From the sequence record MF158040: a stretch of 64,000 bases of DNA. The stretch is one strand, 5' to 3'. The notes beneath the pieces were generated by a model that searched no databases, had not been told where the DNA came from, and worked only from the letters and a program-made list of their open reading frames with translations. The stretch is from Shigella phage Sf13. Position numbers and translations under genes: made by a program. Shown here in pieces: positions 2,487 to 43,684 of the stretch (positions within the stretch are counted from its first letter, which is position 1; each line of letters starts with the position of its first letter).

Positions 2487-3086
2487 TTATTTTACCCCTT
2501 TGGAGTCTACATCTAGATGGATAGTATATTCTGGTGGCTCCTGTCCTTCCTCATAAACCAATTCACCATCCACAATGATACGCTCGATAATACTTCCACG
2601 CTCATCTTTTAATACTGAATTTTTTACAAGGGTTACAACAAGAGGTGCAGAATTTTCAAAATCTGTGTTGAGATAAGTATAATCATTCGGGATAGCCCCT
2701 GTATCAAGTACTGAAGCACCTGTCATGTCAGCTAGATAATCTCTTGTAGTACTCATCTCTAATCTTTGTTTTAGCTCAAGCATAATACTGTGAGCACCTT
2801 TACCATTTACAGTAATCAGTACAGGAATCTGAAAAGCAATTCTATAACAAACTACATCATCTTCCACGAACTTATCAAGAACCCAACCATAAGGTGTGGT
2901 AGCATCTTGACAGTATACTGTAATAAAAGGCTGGTCTGGTTTCAGACCTTTATCATTGGAATTATCTGAAGGGTAAGCCCTAATAACATTTGGCCTGTTA
3001 TTCTTGTCTCTCGCTAAACGGTGACCAATAACATCAACCAAAACTCGGACAATACCTTTCTCAAGTTCTGCTGTTTCTAACTGCAT
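2487..3086 (-). CDS. virion structural protein (tail completion/neck candidate)
   Basis: ORF track; ATG start; in morphogenesis gene string between head and sheath genes. Confidence 0.4.
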   Translation of the reverse strand: MQLETAELEKGIVRVLVDVIGHRLARDKNNRPNVIRAYPSDNSNDKGLKPDQPFITVYCQDATTPYGWVLDKFVEDDVVCYRIAFQIPVLITVNGKGAHSIMLELKQRLEMSTTRDYLADMTGASVLDTGAIPNDYTYLNTDFENSAPLVVTLVKNSVLKDERGSIIERIIVDGELVYEEGQEPPEYTIHLDVDSKGVK

Positions 3087-3462
3087 TCATCTTATCCCTT
3101 CTAATAATGATATACTCATAATGGGATGTGTGAGCTAATTGTTCAGACCAATCCATTGTCATAAAGACTTCGTATTCGTGTCCCTTAATCATGACAATAT
3201 CAGCTTCAGTCCAATCAACATCATCAGACGTTCTTAACTCAGCTACAGTGAAAAGGATTCTTGTATCTGTCAGTCTGATACCTTCAGGTAAAACAATCTG
3301 TGTACCATTCTTTACAGAACCCTTAATATAAGGTTGAATATTACCTTTGCAGTTAATTGATACAATATCCTGTGAAGCTACCCAATCACCATCTTCATTG
3401 TAATGACCATCTTCAGATACCTTTCTTTTAACTACAAAGCTGTGTCTATTTAAGAGTCTCAT
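3061..3462 (-). CDS. virion structural protein (hypothetical)
   Basis: ORF track; ATGA start/stop overlap with upstream gene suggests translational coupling. Confidence 0.4.
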   Translation of the reverse strand: MRLLNRHSFVVKRKVSEDGHYNEDGDWVASQDIVSINCKGNIQPYIKGSVKNGTQIVLPEGIRLTDTRILFTVAELRTSDDVDWTEADIVMIKGHEYEVFMTMDWSEQLAHTSHYEYIIIRRDKMNAVRNSRT

Positions 3463-3941
3463 TTTTTAATACCTTTCTTAGTAGAAATTTTATAAGCAAG
3501 GTTATCTCGTAAATCTCCAGTTTCTACAAGAGGGGCATTGAAGCCTTTCTTTTTAACTGTAGATGGAGCGTTAGGAGGCAATATAGCCGTATTACCAAAA
3601 CCTCTTTTAATTGCTTTCTGAGCACTCTTTGCAAATGCTTCTAAAGTATCTGAGGGGTCAGTATTAAGACTGTTTAATTGCTTATAGAGATTCTTCTTAG
3701 TCTGCTCTAACAAGGTCTGTCTGTGTAACATCATAGTAATTTCAAACAACCTACGATATACTTTACCTGAAGCTGCTGGTACACCAATAACTTCATGCAA
3801 GTACATTAAAGCAGAGTAAGAAAAACCAGAGCTATGTTGACCTTGTTCCTGAAAATACCCAACTTGAGCATTAGCCGTATGCAAGTTCTTCATAGCCCCG
3901 ACTAATTTAGCTCTAGCGGGGTGAATAACCCTTTTAACCAT
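3459..3941 (-). CDS. virion structural protein (hypothetical)
   Basis: ORF track; start overlaps stop of upstream gene. Confidence 0.4.
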   Translation of the reverse strand: MVKRVIHPARAKLVGAMKNLHTANAQVGYFQEQGQHSSGFSYSALMYLHEVIGVPAASGKVYRRLFEITMMLHRQTLLEQTKKNLYKQLNSLNTDPSDTLEAFAKSAQKAIKRGFGNTAILPPNAPSTVKKKGFNAPLVETGDLRDNLAYKISTKKGIKK

Positions 3942-4390
3942 TATTCATCTCGCTCGATAATAAATACACCATTGACACGTTCACAGTAATCTCTACCGTA
4001 GTATCTAACAGCATCGCCATATTCAGTATATTTCTTGACAGAGCAAGGATTTTGACGACGCATGTCAATATCACACTGGTTAATACCACCCGCATAAGGG
4101 AGGCCACTAACAGAGCTTTTAACTAGGTCGTCATAGACAGCTTTCAGAGATTTGAATCTGGAAGAGTTTCGTAAATAAACACCACCAACTTTCTCATCTC
4201 CCATCTTGGCTACTTGAAAGAGTAAATATTTAAGAGCTTTGATGGCTGCTTTCTTTTCATCCTTTCCAGATTCTTGGTAGAACCACTCTAGCACCGATTG
4301 GTCAATGAGGATTTCATTGTTGTCAGTATCGGTGCAGAGGATTCGAACTCTATCAAGAGGGTTATTAGCGGGGTCGCCTGTATAACACAT
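3941..4390 (-). CDS. head completion/connector candidate (hypothetical)
   Basis: ORF track; immediately downstream of major capsid gene. Confidence 0.4.
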   Translation of the reverse strand: MCYTGDPANNPLDRVRILCTDTDNNEILIDQSVLEWFYQESGKDEKKAAIKALKYLLFQVAKMGDEKVGGVYLRNSSRFKSLKAVYDDLVKSSVSGLPYAGGINQCDIDMRRQNPCSVKKYTEYGDAVRYYGRDYCERVNGVFIIERDE

Positions 4391-5937: not shown

Positions 5938-7284
5938 TTATTTGATAAGAGTTTTCAAAGCATTCTGGAGAGCCAGTTTGCGTTGGTCAGCGTTAGCATT
6001 AGCATTTGCTTCTGGAGCGGTGTCTTTACCGTCATCCACTTCTGCTTCGCCGTCATTGCCAAGTTCTTCCATAGCGTTTGAGTGTTCCAGAACAGCACCA
6101 GCAGTTTCTTTCAGCTTAGTGATTTCAGAATCCTTCTCAGACATGGCAGAAGCGTGGGACGCGATAGTTTCATTAAGTTTCTGGTTAGCACCTTCCATAG
6201 CATTCATAAACAGAACACTCAGAGGGTTGTCAAGACCAGCACCTAAAATAGTTGTTGCAGCTTCTTTTGCATCAAACCCAAAAGCTTCAGCAGATGCAGA
6301 AATCTTACCAGTTAAATCTGTAAGAACTGTTTCCTGTTCCTTAGCTTTCATTTGAGCAACCTGAAGACGCAGAGCTTCTAGTTCTTGCTTTTCTTGTTCA
6401 GTCATTTCTTCACCTGAATTGTTTGTGTTTAAACTTACAGGAGCTTCTTCAGAACCTTGTAAGTAATTTAAGAAATCATCTTGAGACATGATAGAGTTAA
6501 TTAAACCAAGTTCAAGAGCTTCCTGAGCAGAATAAACATTCGCCTCAGTATTCTTTACAGCTTCTTCAGAGATATTACGCGAGTCTGCAACAAAACTAGT
6601 AAAAGTCTTGTAAGTGTCATCAATTCTCTTTTGAAGTCTATTCTTGCTTTCTTCTGATAATGCTTGGAATGGGGAACCCATACCTTTAAATTCACCAGCT
6701 TTAATAACGTTAATAGTTACGCCATTCTTTTCAAATGCTTTAGTTAATTCTTGGTGAACCATAATCACACCAATTGAACCAACATCTGCATCTGGTGATG
6801 CAATAATTTCTTCAGCGGAAGATGCAAGAGCGTATGCAGCAGAGCAAGCAAACTCATCTACATAAGCAATAATTTTCTTTTGGCCTCTTGAAGCCATGAT
6901 GTGACGTGCCAACTCAAAACAACCTGACGCTTCACCACCACCTGAATCAACGTGCAGCACGATAGTCTTAATAGACTCATCTGCTAGGGCTTCGTCAAAG
7001 CCTCTGCGTAAACCTTCATAAGAACTTAGTCCACCAGTACACATTGCATCCATGAAGGTCATACGATGTGTTAGGCCACCCATAATAGGGATGATAGCAA
7101 TGTCTTCTTTAACTTTTAAAAGACTTCTTGCTTCACCTTTTGGCTTATCGAAGTTTACTGCTGCTTGTACCTCACCTAACAAGCGGTTATTAACATAAGT
7201 CGCTGCTGAGTGGGCTAATGATTCTGTAGCTAGTAAAGGTTGGTTGAATAATCTGTCAGCAAGTCTGAAGATATTCGAACTCAT
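5938..7284 (-). CDS. prohead protease (S49/ClpP-like) fused to scaffold-like coiled-coil region
   Basis: N-terminal S49 peptidase-like motifs (VLHVDSGGGEASG, KKIIAYVDEFACSAAYALASSA); C-terminal Glu/Lys/Ala-rich coiled-coil. Confidence 0.6.
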   Translation of the reverse strand: MSSNIFRLADRLFNQPLLATESLAHSAATYVNNRLLGEVQAAVNFDKPKGEARSLLKVKEDIAIIPIMGGLTHRMTFMDAMCTGGLSSYEGLRRGFDEALADESIKTIVLHVDSGGGEASGCFELARHIMASRGQKKIIAYVDEFACSAAYALASSAEEIIASPDADVGSIGVIMVHQELTKAFEKNGVTINVIKAGEFKGMGSPFQALSEESKNRLQKRIDDTYKTFTSFVADSRNISEEAVKNTEANVYSAQEALELGLINSIMSQDDFLNYLQGSEEAPVSLNTNNSGEEMTEQEKQELEALRLQVAQMKAKEQETVLTDLTGKISASAEAFGFDAKEAATTILGAGLDNPLSVLFMNAMEGANQKLNETIASHASAMSEKDSEITKLKETAGAVLEHSNAMEELGNDGEAEVDDGKDTAPEANANANADQRKLALQNALKTLIK

Positions 7285-16347: not shown

Positions 16348-16512
16348 ATAATCTTTTTAACAACCTATGTAACAACTATAACACTATTTTTTAGTGTCTG
16401 TCAAGAGGTTTTTTAAAATAATTTGATTTATTTCAGAAAACTTCTTTTTCGTTTCTATGTAGAACATATTAAAGGGTATTAAACACTTTGTCAATACCCT
16501 TTTTAAAACTTT

Positions 16513-17928
16513 TTACCAATCGTAGCGTTCAACCATTACTGCTTTGAGCATTACGCTGATAGGGTCAAACTTCTCACCACCAAGCAAAGCTTTTAAAGTG
16601 GCTGGAGAGAAACCAGATACCATTGCTACACCGTTATCCTTTACAGACACTTCGCAAGTACCATTACGGTTTGCTAAGTACCAGAATACCAGTTGTGGCA
16701 TCTCATATCCAGCTTTCTTGTACTTTTCTTGAATTGCTTCAAAGTTAGTACGACCATCTGCTCCATCAACCTGATTAAACTGCATATCAGAGAAGATGAT
16801 AAGCTTACTAGGCATCTCTTTCTGAGTCAAGTTGTTTTTAACACCAATCTCAAGGATTCTTGCAAAAGCAGCTTGTAGGTCAGTTGAACCATACTCTACA
16901 TGACTCTTCACTTGACGTAAGCGAGTCTGTAAATCACCACTCAATGTGATGAAGTGAGGTCTGCTAGAGTAAACCATCAATTCATCTTTAAAGCAACCTG
17001 TATTACGTTCTGAAACGTACAGGGCTAAAGATACACCAATGTCTAGCGCTGTAACAGAACCATGTCGCTCCCAAGTCATAGATGAAGATACATCTGCCAT
17101 GCACAGAATGTTTTCACCATCTTTCATCCAGTTTGGTAAAGCTTTCCACTGCTCATTTGCAACGGTTGCATTACCATAGCCAACTGACTTTGTAATGTCG
17201 TAAGGGTAGACTGCACCAGCATTAATCTTTGTCTCACCTTTAGTCAGTGCTGCAATGTATGCTGCATAACGCTCACCATCTTTACGACTAAAGAGTTTTT
17301 GATAACGTGCAGCAGCCAGTGAAGGAAGCTTGCTGTAATCAATTTCTCCGAACTCATTTGCTGAAATCTTTTGTTCAACAGTATCAGACAGTGCTGACAG
17401 AAGAACTCGATACTGCTTCTCTGAAAGATTTGCAAACTTACAGAAACGACGAACAAAACGCATGTGTCGTGATTTTACTCGTGGTAACCATTTTGCTGCT
17501 AGAGCCGATGTTGCAGGGTCTAACAGTGCAGCTTCTAAATGCTTGAAAGCATCTGTTTCGTAACGTGTACCAACAAAGATTTTAAAGTCGTCATAACGAC
17601 CTAAATCAGAAACCTTGTCCATGATACGTAACACTTGGAACTCATCAAGAATCCCGTCAGAGATTGCTTTAGTAAGAGTATAACGGAACGCTTTACGCTC
17701 ACCCATACCTTCTCGTGCATCTCGCATATGTAACAGGATTCGAACTGCTACATCAATATCTTCTCGCATTGCCTTGTAAAACAAGTTTGGAAGAACTTCT
17801 ACGTTTGTTCTGCTTGAACCAGCAGCTTTGTAGAAATCTACCAGTGCAGACATTGAAGAGGTGTGGTTAACAGCACCGTTTTCAGTTAAACCTGCATGTA
17901 AATGCGAGTGTTTAAATAATTCGCTCAT
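16513..17928 (-). CDS. DUF2828-like protein with C-terminal von Willebrand factor A (vWA/MIDAS) domain, 471 aa
   Basis: N-terminal TENGAV...ALVDFY motif that I recall as DUF2828-like; C-terminal DVSSSM (DxSxS MIDAS) motif; ATG start verified. Confidence 0.55.
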   Translation of the reverse strand: MSELFKHSHLHAGLTENGAVNHTSSMSALVDFYKAAGSSRTNVEVLPNLFYKAMREDIDVAVRILLHMRDAREGMGERKAFRYTLTKAISDGILDEFQVLRIMDKVSDLGRYDDFKIFVGTRYETDAFKHLEAALLDPATSALAAKWLPRVKSRHMRFVRRFCKFANLSEKQYRVLLSALSDTVEQKISANEFGEIDYSKLPSLAAARYQKLFSRKDGERYAAYIAALTKGETKINAGAVYPYDITKSVGYGNATVANEQWKALPNWMKDGENILCMADVSSSMTWERHGSVTALDIGVSLALYVSERNTGCFKDELMVYSSRPHFITLSGDLQTRLRQVKSHVEYGSTDLQAAFARILEIGVKNNLTQKEMPSKLIIFSDMQFNQVDGADGRTNFEAIQEKYKKAGYEMPQLVFWYLANRNGTCEVSVKDNGVAMVSGFSPATLKALLGGEKFDPISVMLKAVMVERYDW

Positions 17929-20879: not shown

Positions 20880-21344
20880 ATGCAACTCTCAAGTAAAGGC
20901 TTAGAAGCCATTAAGTTCTTTGAAGGGCTTCGTTTAGAAGCCTATAAAGACTCTGCTGGAATCCCTACAATTGGTTATGGTACAATTCGTATCAACGGAA
21001 GACCTGTTACGATGGGGATGAAGATTACTGCCGAGCAAGCTGAACAATATCTCCTTGCAGATGTTGAGAACTATGTAGGTGCAGTAAACAGAGCAATTAA
21101 GGTTCCAACTACGCAGAACGAATTTGACGCACTTGTTGTAGAGACTTACAACATTGGCATCGGTGCTATGCAGGATTCAACTTTTATCAAGCGTCACAAT
21201 GCTGGTAACAAAGCTGGTTGTGCAGAAGCTATGCAGTGGTGGAACAAGATTACAGTGAATGGTCAAAAAGTAACTTCCAAGGGTCTACAAAATAGACGTA
21301 GTTTGGAAGCCAAGATTTACCTTGACGCTGTTTATCCAAAATAG
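20880..21344 (+). CDS. lysozyme/endolysin (GH24 T4-lysozyme-like)
   Basis: Catalytic motif FEGLRLEAYKDSAGIPTIGYG (E...D...T); ATG with AGGAGG RBS; track start is TTG 2 codons upstream. Confidence 0.7.
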   Translation: MQLSSKGLEAIKFFEGLRLEAYKDSAGIPTIGYGTIRINGRPVTMGMKITAEQAEQYLLADVENYVGAVNRAIKVPTTQNEFDALVVETYNIGIGAMQDSTFIKRHNAGNKAGCAEAMQWWNKITVNGQKVTSKGLQNRRSLEAKIYLDAVYPK

Positions 21345-25961: not shown

Positions 25962-26629
25962 TTATGGGACACCTACTGAAGAAGAGTTGGAAGAACTTAG
26001 CAGATATGGTTCCCCATCTGAAGAGGAAGAGAAAGAACTCCGAAGAATGGGAAGCAATTACTAAGAAATGTTTTAAGGATTTGATAGAGATGAAAAAGTT
26101 TGAACTTGAGAGTAATTATATCACATTTAGTGTTAAAGATGTAGACAGACACTTTACCAAAGATGAGAAAAGTGACCTGTATCGTCTTATTCATCGGATG
26201 AATTATCGTAGAAATCTAACAGGTAAAGAGCCACTTGAAGGTATCTTTGTCAAGAAGTCTTACCCGTTCTATGAAGATACTTTGAAGAAACTCGAGATGT
26301 ATGTTAAGCAGCAGAACCGTAAAGAGTTCTCTATGATTTCTCTTGGTGGACAACAAATGCTGGTTATGGAAGATATAAACCCTAAAAGAACTAACAAGGG
26401 TGTTTGTATCAAGGTCACAGGTAAAGAAGAATTTGTTGATTATGACATACTCAGACACATTATAGATGGTTTGGGTGCTGCACTGAACATGAATGAATAC
26501 CATATTAGTTCACACCCGATTAAGGGTGACCAGATAATGATTCAGGTAAGAGAACGCCATAATGGGTTCACACACTTCTTCCAAACTTCTAAAACTTCAT
26601 TGCAAACTATGCTTAGTGAAGTGATGTAA
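25958..26629 (+). CDS. hypothetical protein (223 aa)
   Basis: ORF track; GTG at 25958 or ATG at 25964; followed by terminator. Confidence 0.45.
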   Translation: MIMGHLLKKSWKNLADMVPHLKRKRKNSEEWEAITKKCFKDLIEMKKFELESNYITFSVKDVDRHFTKDEKSDLYRLIHRMNYRRNLTGKEPLEGIFVKKSYPFYEDTLKKLEMYVKQQNRKEFSMISLGGQQMLVMEDINPKRTNKGVCIKVTGKEEFVDYDILRHIIDGLGAALNMNEYHISSHPIKGDQIMIQVRERHNGFTHFFQTSKTSLQTMLSEVM

Positions 26630-26637
26630 AACTATAC

Positions 26638-26662
26638 AGCCCCTTAATTGGGGCTTTTTATT
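26638..26662 (+). terminator. rho-independent terminator (plus strand) ending plus-strand block
   Basis: AGCCCC-ttaatt-GGGGCT hairpin followed by TTTTTATT. Confidence 0.55.
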
Positions 26663-26671
26663 GAGTAAAAT

Positions 26672-28170
26672 TTACTAAATTTATAATTTTTATAAAATTT
26701 GGGATTCACTCCGTTCATCTTGGGTCACCATGATATGTGATAAAATATCTATACCCTTCTAAACACCCTCTCTAAGCATCATCTCTATATAGTATTATAT
26801 AGTATCTATATAGCCTCTTAGCCCCTAAATAGTGCTCTCTATATAGCCCTCTATAAAGCCTTCTAAGCCTACCATTAATCAACCCTATACAATCACCTTC
26901 CTAACCTCTTCATAGCCCCTTAGAAGCCCCTATACTCATCTTAATCTCTAGGTAAACGATAGTACACTATATAGCAGAATCACTAGGTATTACTAAGCCT
27001 CTATATAGACTGTTATATAACACTAAACAGGTATTCCCTTCTAAGGCTTATCCTACAAGGTCTAACACGGTACTAACAAGGTCTCTTATAAGCCTGTTAA
27101 TTCCTGTTTTATATAAGATAGTGTATAGATAGTTATTCAGTTCTATAAAATTTTTATAAAATAGACTAGGTAGTGTTTGTTTAGGAGTCTTTGGAGAATC
27201 TGAAAAATATCTACTTAGGGTGTATATCTGCTTGGTAGCCCTTAACAGCCCTGTAACATCCCCTTTGCAGTTTATTAAAATATCATTAACAATTTCTTAA
27301 CAACTCTCTCAAGCTCTTAACATCTCTTCAGAGTTCTTAACAATCCCTTAACAGAACTAACAAGAGCTTAACAAGTCTGTAACGTTGCTTACAAGAGTCT
27401 AACAAGTTGCTTATAAGTTGCTAAATAGTTAAATCTTAAGAGTTATTTTGTTAAGATAATTAACAAGGTGCTAACAAGTTCTAAACCTTTTTAACAGTCT
27501 CTTAACATGGTCACTATCTCTTGGTCTATAGTTCCCTATGTTTCTTAGTGATTCTCTATAAAGCCCTCTTAAAAGCTCTCTATAGCTCTGTATAGCCTCT
27601 TCTAAGCTTCTCCCTAGTAACTACACCCCAACTACCTGTATAGCTCTTTATAGGGCTTTCTAGGGGCTTATACAGGTACTTCAAAGAGTCTAACAAGCTT
27701 TTAACATACCTCTAACAAGGATTTAACAAGGGGCTAACAAGTCTCTAATAAGCATAACTATGTAGCATTTGTTAAGATTTTGTTAAGAGAATGTAAAGGG
27801 GGCTAACTTTTACGTTACTTTTAAGGTTCTTTTACGTTACTTTGAAGACTCCATAACATACTTTAAAGCTATTATCAAGCCCCTTTGTAACCATTCACAA
27901 GATTCTATCCAGCTTATAAGCTTATACCCTTATAAGATTCTTTTAAGGCTCTAGAAAGCTCTATAAAGGGCTTTTAAGAGTAGGTTAATATGATTGCTTA
28001 AGATGAGATGATAAGCCCGTATAGAGCGTTATAGAGCGTTTTAGGGATTGCCCTTCCCTTTCGGGTTATGGGCTTATATTTAAGTTGATTTGATAAGAGG
28101 ATATAGAGTAAGCTATAGAGTTATTATTCTAAATGTATGGGATAGATTCTAGGAAGGTTTCTTTATAGAC
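26672..28170. repeat. ORF-free region dense in short direct repeats (TAACAAG/CTTAACA family; CTATA(A/T)AG family)
   Basis: No ORF of 60 aa or more on either strand over ~1.5 kb; many copies of (C)TAACA(A/G)G and CTCTATA(A/T)AG; bounded by convergent terminators. Confidence 0.6.
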
Positions 28171-28194
28171 GTAAAAAGCCCCATCTAAGGGGCT
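28171..28194 (-). terminator. rho-independent terminator (minus strand) ending small-gene block
   Basis: AGCCCC-ttagat-GGGGCT hairpin followed by TTTTT on minus strand. Confidence 0.5.
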
Positions 28195-28235
28195 GTAAAG
28201 GTGTCTGGGGCTATTTGCCCCGTTGCGGCGACTTG

Positions 28236-28493
28236 TTAGTTATTGAAGCCGTCAACTTCATAGTAAAGCGTGATAAGAGAATCACCCCAATAGTAAGAGG
28301 ATTTGCCATCCTTTAAGACTTCTTGTTTTACTTCTTTCCAGAACCACTCAGATTGATTGTAGTCCTGAATAGTTGCTTTTAGACACATATCAACCATGCC
28401 AAAAACATCGCCAGTTCCAACCATATCAAATTTAACATCTAATACATGGAAGCCAAAATTGTTAACAGTTGCGTGGATAGTAGCCATTTTCAT
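28236..28493 (-). CDS. hypothetical protein (85 aa)
   Basis: ORF track; ATG preceded by conserved GGAGAAT leader. Confidence 0.5.
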   Translation of the reverse strand: MKMATIHATVNNFGFHVLDVKFDMVGTGDVFGMVDMCLKATIQDYNQSEWFWKEVKQEVLKDGKSSYYWGDSLITLYYEVDGFNN

Positions 28494-28553
28494 ATTCTCC
28501 AGTTTAGGAATTTTGTTTTAGTGGGGAAGTCTCCCTCCCCGTTGAAAGTAATA
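28494..28553 (-). promoter_or_regulatory. intergenic cassette, short form (GC hairpin + conserved RBS leader)
   Basis: Minus-strand hairpin GGGGA...TCCCC followed by CCTAAACTGGAGAAT and ATG. Confidence 0.5.
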
Positions 28554-28817
28554 TTAATTCATTGCTGCATAAGTTGCAAGTCTTTTTTCATTGTATTTTG
28601 TAAGAATCTCACAAGATAAAACGTCATACTTTGCAACGGCTTCAGATTTAGTTAAACCGAAATGGCTTACAATTTCACCATTCATGAATCCGACTACTTC
28701 ATAAGATTCTGCGATGATTTCACCGTTGAACCAATCACTTTCAATACGTTTGCAAAGTTGGATATCTTCTTTGTCAGTACCGATTTGTAACAGGATAGTG
28801 ATTTCTTGATTATTCAT
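28554..28817 (-). CDS. hypothetical protein (87 aa)
   Basis: ORF track; ATG after conserved leader. Confidence 0.5.
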   Translation of the reverse strand: MNNQEITILLQIGTDKEDIQLCKRIESDWFNGEIIAESYEVVGFMNGEIVSHFGLTKSEAVAKYDVLSCEILTKYNEKRLATYAAMN

Positions 28818-28877
28818 TTTCTAGTCTCCAGTTTAGGATTGTTGGGGAAGGTCATTCCCTCCCCGTTGATAAGTACT
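28818..28877 (-). promoter_or_regulatory. intergenic cassette, short form
   Basis: Hairpin GGGGAAGG...CCCTCCCC variant plus CCTAAACTGGAGACTAGAAA leader. Confidence 0.5.
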
Positions 28878-29405
28878 TTATAGATTTGTGATGATTTCGT
28901 CAAGGGAATTTTCTAAGTTTTTTAAAGATTGTTCGTAAAGTCTAATTCCCCTATTTAATGCTTCCCCTAACGTAATTTTAAAACTAGTTGTTGGGTAGTC
29001 ACTTGTAAAGATGTTTTCCACTTCATAGAGTGGGTATTGTTGGTTACCCGTTCCCATAGCATACATGCCTGTATAGTGGATTGCAATAAAAAGATTATGG
29101 GACTTAATAGAGCGCTCATAAGCCATTTTAAAGCGGTTTAACTCGTTTTTAGTTGCCTTAATAGCCATTTCGTGAATTTCTGCGACTATAGCCATATAAT
29201 CATTCAGAATGAGAGAAATAGCCCCCATAAAGTTGTTGGCTGTTACCGCTTTTACATTTGGTCGGTGTACATAAAACTTCTTATCTTCCCCTTTTGTGAT
29301 AACTGCAAAAACTTTACTCTTTAAGGTAAATTCCCAAGTGTCTTTACAAGGCTTGCTCATCACTTCACGGCTACGGATTGCATTAACAGCATTAAACTTA
29401 TTCAT
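28878..29405 (-). CDS. hypothetical protein (175 aa)
   Basis: ORF track; ATG after conserved leader. Confidence 0.5.
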   Translation of the reverse strand: MNKFNAVNAIRSREVMSKPCKDTWEFTLKSKVFAVITKGEDKKFYVHRPNVKAVTANNFMGAISLILNDYMAIVAEIHEMAIKATKNELNRFKMAYERSIKSHNLFIAIHYTGMYAMGTGNQQYPLYEVENIFTSDYPTTSFKITLGEALNRGIRLYEQSLKNLENSLDEIITNL

Positions 29406-41311: not shown

Positions 41312-43684
41312 TTAATCCCAGCATACAGTGTCTTCTGGAATGCTCTTAGTATCAAAACCTAAGAACTTACCAACTTCGACGGGTGATACTTTATTCCAAT
41401 CCAGATTAGAAAGCAAGAAGTTTTCTTTACGGCGTTTCTCAAAGTAATCTTTGAACTTACTTTCAAGACGCTTCTTAGCGTTATCCAGAACCTTTCTTGG
41501 CTTACAAGAACCTCTCATATTCCTACGAATGGTATCAAGAGTGCTGGTAATATCTTTGTAAGCAACTGGTGCAGCAGTATATGCCAAGCGTCCAAACATT
41601 GCTTCTATAGCCTCTTCATTCCCCTCTAAGAAAATAGTCTTCTTAAAATCTTTACTGTAAATGTGGCCTCTGGACTTACGCTTATCAGCAAACATAAAGT
41701 TTCGAGAAATCACATTACAATCAGTGATATCATGATTATTAGTCATATATTGGTGAGTCAAGTAACGGTGATACTCAATCCAATGAGTATTATCAATAAA
41801 ATCTTTCATCACTTGTTCATTGACTTCTGTCCAGTCTTCAGGAATCTTTTTCCAGTTGGCTTTACGGAAGACATAAACTGACTGTCCAGTTAACTCTGTC
41901 ATCAACGTTGCAGCACGTTCTGGTGAACATGAGAAGATTCCACCAATCACTTCATCACTCTGTGCTTTGATATACAGTTGTGGTTCTTCAATCTCATCAA
42001 AGTTCTCTTTAACCTCTGTATAGCGAATCATGTCAGTATTTGGACATATAAATGCTTTATACAGTTTTACAACACCACGTACAATAGTACGTTTTTCATA
42101 GTGGTGCTCTTTAGATGACATTGTATGCACACTTAACAGACTCTTGTCAAGCATATGCAAATCTACAAACTCATCAAATTGCTGCTGACTGCTGAACAAG
42201 AAAGCGATACCATTGTAGCGACGGAAGTTAGAGTCTTCCTGTTCACGGTCACGGCAAGCTCCACGGATAATCTGGTTTTTACCAGTTGTCTTCTCAGACC
42301 CGTTCTTGTTTCGACGGTCATTAATAAGGAACAAATAGTTGCTCAACTTATCTTTACTCATTGCACCAAAGATACTAAACATTGCTGCATCTTGTGAATA
42401 AGTTGCTGAAGTTGCTCGAATACGATTCTCCAGACTGCTGTACTTGTAGTATGCTACAGGTTCATACAGATTACCAATATTAGGAACTGGATTACCATCT
42501 TTGTCAAGCCGCAAGTTACCTGCATCATCTTTCAAGAATGACGGAGAACCATCTGCTTCAGTTAACTGACCACGACGGATACCTAACAGTTTTTGTTCAA
42601 GTTTTTTCAAGTTCTGGCCTTGCCATTCCAGAGAATCTTGGACGTGAATAAAGATTTCACGAGCCTCCTTCCTCATGGTATCATAGGCTTGAGCAGCATC
42701 AATCAGAGTTGGCTTGTTAGCAATCTCTTTTACCACATCTTCTACGATTGTCTTAGTGATTTTCTTCACAGCTTCAACAATCTTGGTCTTAGTGGTCTCA
42801 TTCATCTGCAATGCTTCACGAGATGCAGCAATAGCCACTGAACCAATTGGCATGTAGATGTTAACAAGGTCTACAGCACTACGGAAGAACTGAGGCAGAA
42901 TGCTTGTAAACTCTGAACCAAGCAACTCACCCATTTCAACAGGATAAGCAATATTACCCATGATTACATTGAAATGGACACTGTTACTATTTGAACGCCA
43001 GTTCTCTTTGTACTTCATTGCATCATAGACACCATCTTCACGAGAAATGGAAGTCATTGCTTCAAGAATGTCATAGTACTCAACATTACACTCTGGCTTA
43101 ACTTTAAAGTACGAGTATACATTGCTCGCTTCTTCATGAAACTTGTTGATACGGTTATCGGATACCGCTACTCGAACAGCTAAACCATTTGGCTCTGTAG
43201 TTGGGTTAGTAGTCAACTTAGTTACTTGAGGGATACCATTCTCAAGGTAAACTGAGTATTTGTTAACTACACCATCAACATAGCTTGATACAGTGAATGA
43301 CTGAGCAATTGCAAATGGTGACTTTGAACCGATACCCATAGCACCAATGTAGTCATTTGAATCGTTTTTTGTAGATTCTCCATAGGTCATGTAAAGTTTC
43401 ATAACTTTATCATGAGTCAGCCCTGTACCAAAGTCACGAACTTCAAAGAATGGCTCGAAACGAGTTGGTAAGTGAACCAAGAAAGGTTTATCAACGTTAC
43501 CAGAATCAATGTGAGCATCTACTGCGTTACATGACAATTCACGAATTACAGCACGTTCTTTATATGTGTAAACACCTGAGCTTAGAAGACTGAACATTTC
43601 AGGTGTCATCTTAATCTGAGCCTGAGAGGTTTCCAGTGTACTTGAGCTTTTAATTACCGTTGCGTGGTCATTTACCATGCGCAT
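41312..43684 (-). CDS. rIIA: rIIA-like protein (N-terminal GHKL-type ATPase fold)
   Basis: N-terminal motifs AVIRELSCNAVDAH, RDFGTGLT, GAMGIGSKSPF as in T4 rIIA; 790 aa. Confidence 0.65.
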   Translation of the reverse strand: MRMVNDHATVIKSSSTLETSQAQIKMTPEMFSLLSSGVYTYKERAVIRELSCNAVDAHIDSGNVDKPFLVHLPTRFEPFFEVRDFGTGLTHDKVMKLYMTYGESTKNDSNDYIGAMGIGSKSPFAIAQSFTVSSYVDGVVNKYSVYLENGIPQVTKLTTNPTTEPNGLAVRVAVSDNRINKFHEEASNVYSYFKVKPECNVEYYDILEAMTSISREDGVYDAMKYKENWRSNSNSVHFNVIMGNIAYPVEMGELLGSEFTSILPQFFRSAVDLVNIYMPIGSVAIAASREALQMNETTKTKIVEAVKKITKTIVEDVVKEIANKPTLIDAAQAYDTMRKEAREIFIHVQDSLEWQGQNLKKLEQKLLGIRRGQLTEADGSPSFLKDDAGNLRLDKDGNPVPNIGNLYEPVAYYKYSSLENRIRATSATYSQDAAMFSIFGAMSKDKLSNYLFLINDRRNKNGSEKTTGKNQIIRGACRDREQEDSNFRRYNGIAFLFSSQQQFDEFVDLHMLDKSLLSVHTMSSKEHHYEKRTIVRGVVKLYKAFICPNTDMIRYTEVKENFDEIEEPQLYIKAQSDEVIGGIFSCSPERAATLMTELTGQSVYVFRKANWKKIPEDWTEVNEQVMKDFIDNTHWIEYHRYLTHQYMTNNHDITDCNVISRNFMFADKRKSRGHIYSKDFKKTIFLEGNEEAIEAMFGRLAYTAAPVAYKDITSTLDTIRRNMRGSCKPRKVLDNAKKRLESKFKDYFEKRRKENFLLSNLDWNKVSPVEVGKFLGFDTKSIPEDTVCWD

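What the first reader, a model, noticed from the sequence alone, without database searches (positions are those of the whole stretch)
26630..28235. 1.5 kb ORF-free region packed with short direct repeats between convergent transcription blocks
The sequence shows about 1.5 kb with no ORF of 60 aa or more on either strand, which is unusual in a phage genome this dense. It contains roughly 20 copies of (C)TAACA(A/G)G-type words (for example ctaacaaggatttaacaaggggctaacaagtc near 27715) and about 15 copies of CTCTATA(A/T)AG words, plus AT-rich palindromes (ttttataaaa). It sits exactly where the plus-strand block and the minus-strand small-gene block terminate, each with a terminator. Arrays of short repeated sites like this are typical of replication origins (iterons), packaging or genome-terminus regions, or protein-binding arrays; I cannot assign it to a known element.
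Basis: seen in the sequence. Interest (0 to 1): 0.75.

Follow-up and report, generated by a model that had tools for sequence, protein, structure and literature searches.

The report
Genome-end repeat region of phage
This gene-free 1.5 kb stretch is where the linear chromosome of a Felix-O1-like (Mooglevirus) phage begins and ends: a roughly 570-bp terminal repeat with non-coding arms, filled with short words spaced one DNA turn apart that probably guide cutting and packaging of the DNA.

Summary
Window 26630-28235 has no ORF longer than 38 aa. It lies between two convergent terminators and is strongly enriched in TAACA-type and CTCTATA-type words with a 10-11 bp period.

It is not an unknown element. 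The window is an Ounavirinae (Mooglevirus-like) phage. In relatives with mapped or annotated short direct terminal repeats (DTR), the physical genome ends fall at window 27234 and 27803. These relatives are vB_CbrM_HP1, Pr103Blw, UAB_69 and Erwinia phage M7. Both positions lie inside blocks invariant across genera. The region is therefore the concatemer junction: left arm, about 570-bp DTR, right arm.

Three results appear undescribed in the papers I could search:
- The TAACA words are 96% conserved against 69% for their spacers.
- The same words recur in Erwinia phage phiEa21-4, whose region is otherwise almost unalignable.
- Both DNA ends, read inward, start G..CCCTT(A/T)ACA followed by 11-bp-phased words.

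The inferred mechanism is a phased protein-binding array that positions terminase nicks at the two DTR borders. The closest analogue is the T7 terminal repeat with its CCTAAAG arrays. A replication-origin role is not excluded. This is a new member of a known kind, of moderate interest.

The parts
26638..26661 (+). Intrinsic terminator ending the + strand gene block (AGCCCCTTAATTGGGGCT plus T-run)
   Evidence: It forms a 90% inverted pair with the opposite terminator (I3).
26660..27233 (.). Unique non-coding arm outside DTR border B. It holds CTCTATA(T/A)AG-type words on the + strand (26783, 26837, 26849, 26999), three TAACA words (27018-27078) and strong C-over-G skew.
   Evidence: Conserved at 57-99% per 30-nt bin against Felixounavirus and Suspvirus between 26710 and 27159, dipping to 47% at 27160-27189.
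27146..27164 (.). AT-rich palindromic block TAAAATTTTTATAAAATAG, invariant in all 12 aligned genomes, about 70-88 bp outside border B. A similar ATTTTTAAAAAATAG lies at the equivalent side in phiEa21-4.
   Evidence: No stable hairpin is predicted.
27221..27247 (+). Border B motif TGTATATCTGCTT|GGTAGCCCTTAACA, invariant in 12 genomes. The physical end maps between 27233 and 27234.
   Evidence: The homologous ...CCACTAA|GCAGATATACA lies at the Erwinia phage M7/phiEa21-4 border.
27234..27803 (.). Homologue of the short direct terminal repeat (about 570 bp). It is present once here because the record is a collapsed, permuted assembly.
   Evidence: The record ends of vB_CbrM_HP1 (570-bp repeat_region) and Pr103Blw (581-bp 'short direct terminal repeat') align exactly to 27803 and 27234. 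The UAB_69 'DTR' feature is 2 nt wider on each side. There is a single copy in the window.
27242..27507 (+). Main array of (C/T)TAACA(A/G) words, 15 copies, mostly 11 bp (some 20 bp) apart, reading inward from border B
   Evidence: Words are 96% conserved against 69% for spacers.
27449..27465 (.). Invariant inverted word pair TGTTAAGATAATTAACA inside the DTR. The surrounding 120 bp (27357-27475) is an internal paralogue of the segment before border A (27690-27807).
   Evidence: (D9)
27554..27670 (+). CTCTATAAAG / CTGTATAG word cluster inside the DTR. 27642-27670 pairs (86%) with 27944-27972, symmetric about border A.
   Evidence: (I1, I4, I5)
27690..27739 (+). Second TAACAAG array, five copies exactly 11 bp apart
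27770..27807 (-). Border A: inverted words TGTTAAG x2 and TGTAAAG, then GGGGGC|TAAC. The physical end maps between 27803 and 27804. Read inward it is GCCCCCTTTACATTCTCTTAACAAAATCTTAACA, with word ends at 12, 23 and 34.
   Evidence: It aligns to phiEa21-4 17024-17061, the start of the M7 DTR.
27804..28176 (.). Unique non-coding arm outside border A. It holds an 11-bp CTTTTACGTTA/CTTTTAAGGTT array (27806-27850, copy number varies between genomes), CTTATAAG words, a CTCTAGAAAG/CTCTATAAAG pair (27949-27968) and inverted TATAGAG pairs (28020-28036, 28102-28120).
28177..28199 (-). Intrinsic terminator ending the - strand early-gene block (the rIIA side)

Best explanation
The region is the genome terminus, or concatemer junction, of an Ounavirinae (Mooglevirus-like) myovirus.

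Shown by homology: the central 570 bp (27234-27803) is the short direct terminal repeat that sits at both ends of the virion DNA. The segments 26660-27233 and 27804-28176 are the unique subterminal arms. The whole junction is insulated from the two convergent gene blocks by terminators.

Inferred mechanism: the short words are phased binding sites, about one per helical turn, for a phage DNA-recognition protein of the packaging machinery. These words are above all (C/T)TAACA, with CTCTATA(A/T)AG-type and CTTTTAC(G/A)-type words beside them. The protein would be a not-yet-recognised small terminase or an accessory factor. It would coat or wrap this DNA and position the large terminase nuclease at the two invariant border motifs.

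Both 5' ends read inward begin G(N2-4)CCCTT(A/T)ACA followed by words in 11-bp register. The two nicks are therefore related by two-fold symmetry and lie on opposite strands, 570 bp apart. Separating the strands and filling in the 5' overhangs would duplicate the repeat (a Watson-type staggered-nick model).
For: Identity as the terminus:
- The region is 95% identical to Mooglevirus phages and about 75% identical to Felix O1 and wV8.
- At least six records begin at position 1; four of them align to query 1174 (= window 27803) and two end 6-20 nt short of it (query 1168 and 1154). Several carry 'repeat_region', 'DTR' or 'short direct terminal repeat' features there.
- The ends of HP1 and Pr103Blw map exactly to 27803 and 27234. 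The UAB_69 DTR agrees within 2 nt.
- Pr103Blw termini come from PhageTerm (PMC8303462). The sister phage UAB_Phi87 has a 608-bp DTR shown by Bal31 digestion and run-off sequencing, and no cos ends (PMC4837284).
- Erwinia phage M7 carries an exact 444-bp repeat at its record ends. Its borders coincide with two of the few short segments that still align between the window and phiEa21-4, and these are the only ones colinear with the junction.
- Both borders lie in blocks invariant across 12 genomes.

Function of the words:
- Strong enrichment over shuffles and 10-11 bp phasing.
- TAACA words are 96% conserved against 69% for spacers (permutation p < 0.0002).
- Indels between genomes come in 11- and 22-bp units.
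- The same words are enriched in the otherwise almost unalignable phiEa21-4 region: TGTTAA 17 against 0.75 expected, TTAACA 8 against 0.71, CTTCTAA[AG] 8 against 0.2.
- The non-coding DNA is better conserved than its flanking genes, whose proteins are only 39-60% identical to most Felixounavirus homologues.
- Word clusters occur essentially only at this locus in the 64 kb.
- Inward-reading word symmetry at both ends holds in three genera.

Analogy: T7 carries same-orientation CCTAAAG words inside and next to its 160-bp terminal repeat.
Against: - The physical ends of this particular phage were not measured. The assignment rests on homology, although the border blocks are invariant.
- No binding protein is identified. 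No small terminase is recognisable. The 68-aa ORF just upstream of TerL is of unknown function, and the literature reports only a large terminase in this group (PMC4837284).
- CTCTATA-type words are not significantly better conserved than their spacers (83% against 78%, p = 0.14).
- The function of the analogous T7 arrays is itself unproven (own knowledge).
- Nothing here separates a packaging role from a replication or end-protection role for the words.
- Reported borders differ by 2-3 nt between sources.
Confidence: 0.55

Rival explanations
1. The arrays are the iterons of a replication origin placed next to or inside the terminal repeat, either instead of or in addition to a packaging role. 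An initiator would bind the phased words and melt the invariant AT-rich block at 27146-27164.
For: - Direct repeats in helical phase next to an invariant AT-rich palindrome.
- An AT-rich block is also present at the equivalent place in phiEa21-4.
- The cumulative GC-skew turning point lies near 26500.
- T7 has secondary origins near its ends (own knowledge).
Against: - No DnaA box in the region.
- No recognisable initiator gene beside it.
- The words are 5-9 nt long, not the 17-22 nt of classical iterons.
- The skew switch coincides with the switch of transcription direction and of word orientation, so it is uninformative.
- The AT-rich block has no predicted special structure.
Confidence: 0.15
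2. The arrays act as a phage 'telomere'. A phage protein coats the terminal repeat and subterminal DNA to protect the ends from RecBCD or other nucleases, or to control DNA ejection or end-to-end recombination after entry.
For: - The words start 6-8 nt from each physical end and face inward at both ends.
- The arrays cover the whole DTR and both subterminal arms.
Against: - There is no evidence for such a protein.
- Words extend more than 500 bp from the ends and into arms that are internal at one end.
- The invariant border motifs point to sequence-specific cutting rather than protection.
Confidence: 0.08
3. The words bind a host nucleoid protein or a transcription factor, or make intrinsically curved DNA. 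This would serve as a transcriptional insulator between the two convergent gene blocks.
For: - Convergent terminators flank the region.
- The sequence is AT-rich and phased.
Against: - The two terminators already do this job.
- 1.5 kb of sequence, better conserved than the neighbouring genes, is excessive for insulation.
- There is no excess of sigma-70-like promoters (9 against 6.9 expected).
- The words match no host-factor consensus that I tested (DnaA only).
Confidence: 0.05
4. The repeats are neutral by-products of replication slippage or recombination in a non-coding spacer and have no sequence-specific function.
For: Unit-sized (11 and 22 bp) indels show that the arrays expand and contract.
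Against: - The words are 27 percentage points better conserved than their spacers.
- The same words persist in a genus where the rest of the region is almost unalignable.
- Strict orientation and phasing are kept.
Confidence: 0.04

Closest known systems
Short direct terminal repeats of Felix O1-like phages (UAB_Phi87 608 bp, Pr103Blw 581 bp, vB_CbrM_HP1 570 bp, UAB_69 618 bp, Erwinia phage M7 444 bp)
   Same: Homologous DNA. The borders fall in the same invariant motifs, and the position between the rIIA-side early block and the lysis-side block is the same (PMC4837284, PMC8303462, PMC9120918).
   Different: Nothing essential differs. This phage's own ends were not measured. The published descriptions I could read give only the repeat length and do not mention the word arrays or the border motifs.
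Phage T7 concatemer junction: 160-bp terminal repeat with the adjacent short-repeat arrays SRL and SRR (Dunn & Studier 1983, own knowledge)
   Same: A short exact DTR lies in a non-coding junction. One short word (CCTAAAG) in a single orientation occurs inside the repeat (3 copies) and in arrays next to it (8 exact copies at 175-332, often 13 bp apart, plus copies before the right repeat). The word resembles the C(T)CTA(T)AAAG words here.
   Different: - There is no sequence homology, and T7 is a podovirus with a recognised small terminase.
- The T7 ends show no inward-facing symmetric word at both borders.
- The spacing is about 13 bp rather than 11 bp.
- T7 has promoters and origins in the junction, whereas this junction has none recognisable and is flanked by convergent terminators.
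- This junction is about three times larger.
SPP1 pac region (pacL and pacR boxes flanking the pacC cut site, bound by the small terminase G1P; own knowledge)
   Same: Phased short boxes lie on both sides of a cleavage site. Here, inverted arrays lie symmetrically about border A (27642-27670 / 27944-27972, and the TTTAC words on both sides).
   Different: SPP1 packages by headful and gives permuted ends. Here the ends are fixed at two sites and form an exact DTR.
Iteron-type replication origins (plasmids, lambda ori)
   Same: Direct repeats in helical phase next to an AT-rich block.
   Different: The words are much shorter, there are dozens of copies over 1.5 kb, there is no adjacent initiator gene and no DnaA box.

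Membership tests
Short-DTR genome terminus / concatemer junction (T7-type fixed-end packaging) | Virion DNA has fixed physical ends at defined nucleotides | not testable with these tools
   This needs reads or virion DNA of this phage. In relatives the ends map to window 27234 and 27803. They were determined by PhageTerm (PMC8303462) and, in UAB_Phi87, by Bal31 digestion plus run-off sequencing (PMC4837284).
Short-DTR genome terminus / concatemer junction (T7-type fixed-end packaging) | The same sequence of a few hundred bp is present at both ends of the linear genome | tested here: met
   Met in homologous records: HP1 1-570 = 88766-89335, Pr103Blw 1-581 = 87841-88421 (annotated), and M7 1-444 = last 444 nt at 100% identity. 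The window holds the single collapsed copy.
Short-DTR genome terminus / concatemer junction (T7-type fixed-end packaging) | Repeat borders are conserved sequence motifs (specific cutting, not headful) | tested here: met
   The borders lie in blocks invariant in 12 genomes. They are conserved in Kolesnikvirus within 2-3 nt.
Short-DTR genome terminus / concatemer junction (T7-type fixed-end packaging) | Large terminase of the DTR-type clade | tested here: inconclusive
   The window TerL (9607-11223, -) is 69% identical to phiEa21-4 TerL. PMC4837284 places Felix O1-like TerL in a DTR cluster. No phylogeny was run here.
Headful pac site (P22/SPP1 type) | Circularly permuted, terminally redundant ends with an imprecise series of cuts | tested here: not met
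   Relatives have exact repeats with fixed borders.
cos site | Single-stranded cohesive ends | not tested
   Not tested here. PMC4837284 reports that UAB_Phi87 DNA shows no cos behaviour.
Iteron replication origin | Iterons plus an AT-rich unwinding element plus a cognate initiator (often encoded adjacent) and/or DnaA boxes, with origin activity | tested here: inconclusive
   Phased repeats and an invariant AT-rich block are present. There is no DnaA box and no recognisable initiator next door. Origin activity is not testable here.
CRISPR array | Repeats of 23-50 nt separated by unique spacers of similar length | tested here: not met
   The units are 10-12 bp words with 2-6 nt spacers.
Structured non-coding RNA | Match to an RNA family, or a promoter plus a conserved fold | tested here: not met
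   No Rfam match inside 26630-28235 at E <= 1. No promoter excess. Fold z-scores are near 0.

The most novel reading that the evidence does not exclude
Ounavirinae have no recognisable small terminase. They may use a subfamily-wide DNA code of (C/T)TAACA words in 11-bp register, ending in an inward-facing CCCTT(A/T)ACA motif at both repeat borders. An unidentified protein would read this code and direct two symmetric nicks 444-620 bp apart. That would be a mechanism of terminal-repeat generation and packaging recognition distinct from T7, possibly combined with an origin in the AT-rich arm.
Probability: 0.3. Interest if true: 0.55.

Novelty: new member of a known kind. Interest (0 to 1): 0.35.

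Why it matters
Felix O1-like phages are widely used for Salmonella typing, biocontrol and therapy, yet their packaging signal and DNA-recognition protein are unknown.

Placing the terminal repeat and its invariant borders on the sequence has practical uses:
- Collapsed assemblies like this one can be re-opened correctly.
- The spurious small ORFs annotated over the arrays in several records are explained.
- A minimal cis element is defined for engineering: packaging plasmids, transducing particles and synthetic genome rebooting.

The word-level conservation across genera gives a concrete probe for fishing out the missing recognition protein. It also offers a comparative handle on the long-unexplained short-repeat arrays beside the T7 terminal repeat.

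Tried and rejected
- Rfam scan of 26000-29000 at E <= 1: nothing in the region.
- Sigma-70 promoter scan: 9 sites against 6.9 expected, so no signal.
- DnaA-box search: none in the region.
- Hairpin or cruciform prediction at both borders, the AT-rich block and the internal palindrome: z-scores between -0.6 and +0.7, so no support for a T7-style hairpin intermediate.
- Search for a small terminase or DNA-binding protein next to TerL and next to the region: PHROGs and Pfam give only families of unknown function.
- The flanking proteins did not lead to Erwinia phages. The phiEa21-4 locus was found by synteny instead.
- The UAB_Phi87 record (JN225449) does not start at its physical end, so it could not be used directly.
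- Literature: no held paper describes the word arrays. The searches for T7 SRL/SRR papers and for 'CCTAAAG' were uninformative.
- Coding potential was rejected: no ORF of 60 aa or more, no 3-nt periodicity, and small ORFs annotated in some relatives at non-corresponding positions.
- CRISPR, cos and headful-pac readings were rejected (see the membership table).

Full report
1. THE OBSERVATION

The sequence at 26630-28235 has no ORF above 38 aa on either strand. The flanking genes end at 26629 (+, 223 aa) and 28236 (-, 85 aa). Terminator-like hairpins with T-runs close both blocks: + strand 26638-26655 and - strand 28194-28177. The two are near-identical inverted copies (I3).

Word counts against 500 dinucleotide-preserving shuffles:
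- TAACA on the + strand: 23 against 2.2 expected.
- TAACAAG: 10 against 0.15.
- CTCTATA[AT]AG: 6 against 0.04.
- TTTTATAAAA: 2 against 0.02.

An unbiased 6-mer count puts TAACAA, TTAACA, TCTATA and AACAAG at the top, at 13-32 times the density in the rest of the window. Autocorrelation peaks at lags 10 and 11 (z = 8.5 and 10.3 against other segments of the window), with harmonics and no lag-3 signal. TAACA words are 11 bp apart in 12 cases and 20 bp apart in 4. Tandem Repeats Finder and the repeat finder see many short arrays of period 10-13. Clusters of these words occur essentially only at this locus in the 64 kb; the only windows reaching the threshold elsewhere are two marginal ones just outside it.

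Only the count of strict CTCTATA(A/T)AG words was overstated.

2. WHAT THE WINDOW IS

The region is 95% identical to Mooglevirus phages (vB_EcoM_3HA14, Shigella Sf17 and Sf18). It is 88-93% identical to the Citrobacter phages Michonne, Moogle and HP1, and about 75-77% identical to Felix O1, wV8 and about 200 other Felixounavirus or Suspvirus records. Most records annotate nothing there.

Window layout:
- TerL at 9607-11223 (-).
- A 25-tRNA cluster at 11656-16347 (-).
- Endolysin at about 20880-21335 (+).
- The + strand block running to 26629.
- The region itself.
- The - strand early block running back from rIIA (41324-43684).

3. THE KEY RESULT: THIS IS THE GENOME TERMINUS

In the sensitive search, at least six records start at their base 1; four of them align to query position 1174 (= window 27803) and two end 6-20 nt short of it. 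Others end near query position 596-607 (about window 27225-27236). Some of these records carry features named 'repeat_region', 'DTR' or 'short direct terminal repeat region'.

- vB_CbrM_HP1 (Mooglevirus) has a 570-bp repeat_region at both record ends.
- Pr103Blw (Felixounavirus) has a 581-bp repeat at both record ends.
- Local alignment puts the ends of both phages exactly at window 27803 and 27234.
- UAB_69 annotates a 618-bp 'DTR' whose borders are 2 nt outside these on each side.

The Pr103Blw termini come from PhageTerm (PMC8303462). [quoted passage not shown] For the sister phage UAB_Phi87, a 608-bp DTR was shown experimentally by Bal31 digestion and run-off sequencing, and cos ends were excluded (PMC4837284). 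The Felix O1 paper had inferred short terminal repeats from genome size (PMC3185647).

The window holds one copy, as expected for a collapsed, permuted assembly.

4. CONSERVATION

A 12-genome alignment shows that the non-coding region is well conserved. Most 30-nt bins are 47-99% identical to Felixounavirus and Suspvirus. The flanking proteins are only 39-60% identical to most Felixounavirus homologues, and DNA alignments to those genomes stop at the gene borders.

Both DTR borders lie in invariant blocks:
- TGTATATCTGCTT|GGTAGCCCTTAACA at 27221-27247.
- AATGT(A/T)AAGGGGGC|TA at 27790-27805.

TAACA words are 96% conserved against 69% for the spacers between them (permutation p < 0.0002). CTCTATA-type words are not significantly different from their spacers (83% against 78%). 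Indels between genomes cluster at 11 and 21-25 bp, so whole units are gained and lost and the phase is kept.

5. A DISTANT GENUS HAS THE SAME WORDS

Erwinia phage phiEa21-4 (Kolesnikvirus) has a syntenic 1.2-1.4 kb gene-poor gap at 16472-17900. Only short patches align to the window. The two that are colinear are the border zones: window 27344-27221 with 17365-17479, and window 27807-27770 with 17024-17061.

The same words are nevertheless enriched there:
- TGTTAA: 17 against 0.75 expected.
- TTAACA: 8 against 0.71.
- CTTCTAA[AG]: 8 against 0.2.

They again occur in 11-12-bp arrays. The related phage M7 carries an exact 444-bp repeat at its record ends, which maps to phiEa21-4 17025-17468. These are the two aligned border zones.

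It also confirms the borders independently.

6. ANATOMY OF THE ENDS

Read inward, end A is GCCCCCTT(A/T)ACATT..CTTAACA....CTTAACA, with word ends at 12, 23 and 34. End B is GGTAGCCCTTAACAGCCCTGTAACATCCCCTTTGCA, with word ends at 14, (25) and 36. M7 shows the same 11-bp register at both ends.

The two 5' ends therefore present the same motif in inverted orientation. Staggered nicks on opposite strands made by one recognition complex would give this arrangement. Strand separation and fill-in would then duplicate the repeat (Watson-type model; inference).

Around border A the arrays are roughly dyad-symmetric:
- TTTAC-type words lie on both sides of the border.
- 27642-27670 pairs with 27944-27972 at 86%, centred at about 27807.

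Border B is asymmetric and has the conserved outside motif AAGCAGATATACA. No stable hairpins are predicted at either border.

7. MECHANISM AND RIVALS

I rate the identity as the DTR junction at about 0.9.

I rate the idea that the words are phased binding sites of the packaging-recognition machinery at about 0.45-0.5. Four observations support it:
- selective conservation of the words;
- helical phasing;
- occurrence at a single locus;
- symmetry at the cut sites.

Two further points fit this idea: the analogy with the T7 CCTAAAG arrays in and beside its terminal repeat (SRL and SRR from own knowledge), and proteins that bind direct repeats at 10-11-bp spacing (own knowledge).

No reader protein is identified. 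The ORF upstream of TerL and the flanking genes belong to families of unknown function.

A replication-origin role remains possible, whether alone or combined with packaging. An invariant AT-rich block lies at 27146-27164, with a similar block in phiEa21-4. Against this, there are no DnaA boxes and no initiator gene nearby. End protection, transcriptional insulation and neutral slippage are less likely (see the rival explanations).

8. COMPARISON WITH WHAT IS KNOWN, AND NOVELTY

The element is a member of the known class of short-DTR genome termini, and it is homologous to the DTRs already annotated in Ounavirinae. Functionally it resembles the T7 concatemer junction with its short-repeat arrays, but it shares no sequence with it. 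It differs in word symmetry, spacing, size and the absence of promoters.

I did not find the following described in the held literature (some key older papers are not held):
- the word code conserved across genera;
- the invariant border motifs;
- the inward-facing symmetry of the two ends.

9. VERDICT

The feature is real and non-random. It is explained as the terminal-repeat junction, a new member of a known kind, and is of moderate interest (0.35).

Noticed in passing
L018 (phiEa21-4) 17660-17881; L021 (M7) 636-845; L001 (Michonne) 6366-6566; L002 (ESh20) 3032-4088; L006 (UAB_69) 1896-2191: Small 'hypothetical protein' CDSs are annotated over the repeat arrays in several relatives. They sit at non-corresponding positions, and the window has no ORF of 60 aa or more there. 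They are probably spurious calls made of repeat words.
   Followed up: partly
Relatives only: L012 381 and 972, L017 959, L006 2723, L011 1999, L013 1989, L001 5962, L004 1481, L016 381, L002 4571; also TTGGTAACAATACCA at L006 2238 and L011 1216 and 1833: Short palindromic cores (GATTCG(A/G)TAGA(A/T)TC and TTGGTAACAATACCA), lying within insertions of about 22-25 bp, sit at several different positions of the terminus region in different genomes. They are absent from the window. They look like tiny mobile or hairpin insertions.
   Followed up: partly
window 26632-26660 and 28172-28200: The two convergent terminators that bracket the junction are 90% complementary copies of one another, 1511 nt apart. 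The whole junction is therefore framed by an inverted repeat.
   Followed up: no
window 27357-27475 vs 27690-27807: There is an internal duplication within the terminal repeat (68% over about 120 nt; 81% over 27445-27475 against 27777-27807). The sequence just inside border A thus has an internal paralogue containing the invariant palindrome TGTTAAGATAATTAACA.
   Followed up: partly
window 11656-16347 (-): A cluster of 25 tRNA genes lies between the TerL-side genes and the lysis-side block. This is typical of Felix O1-like phages.
   Followed up: no
window 11230-11436 (-): A 68-aa ORF lies immediately upstream of the large terminase (phrog_4397, unknown function, no Pfam hit). By position it is a candidate packaging partner in a subfamily with no annotated small terminase.
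   Followed up: partly
GenBank GU169904 (Staphylococcus phage SA1), 135105-135353: A record labelled as a Staphylococcus phage matches both this region and its flanking Felix O1-like genes. This suggests a chimeric or contaminated record.
   Followed up: no
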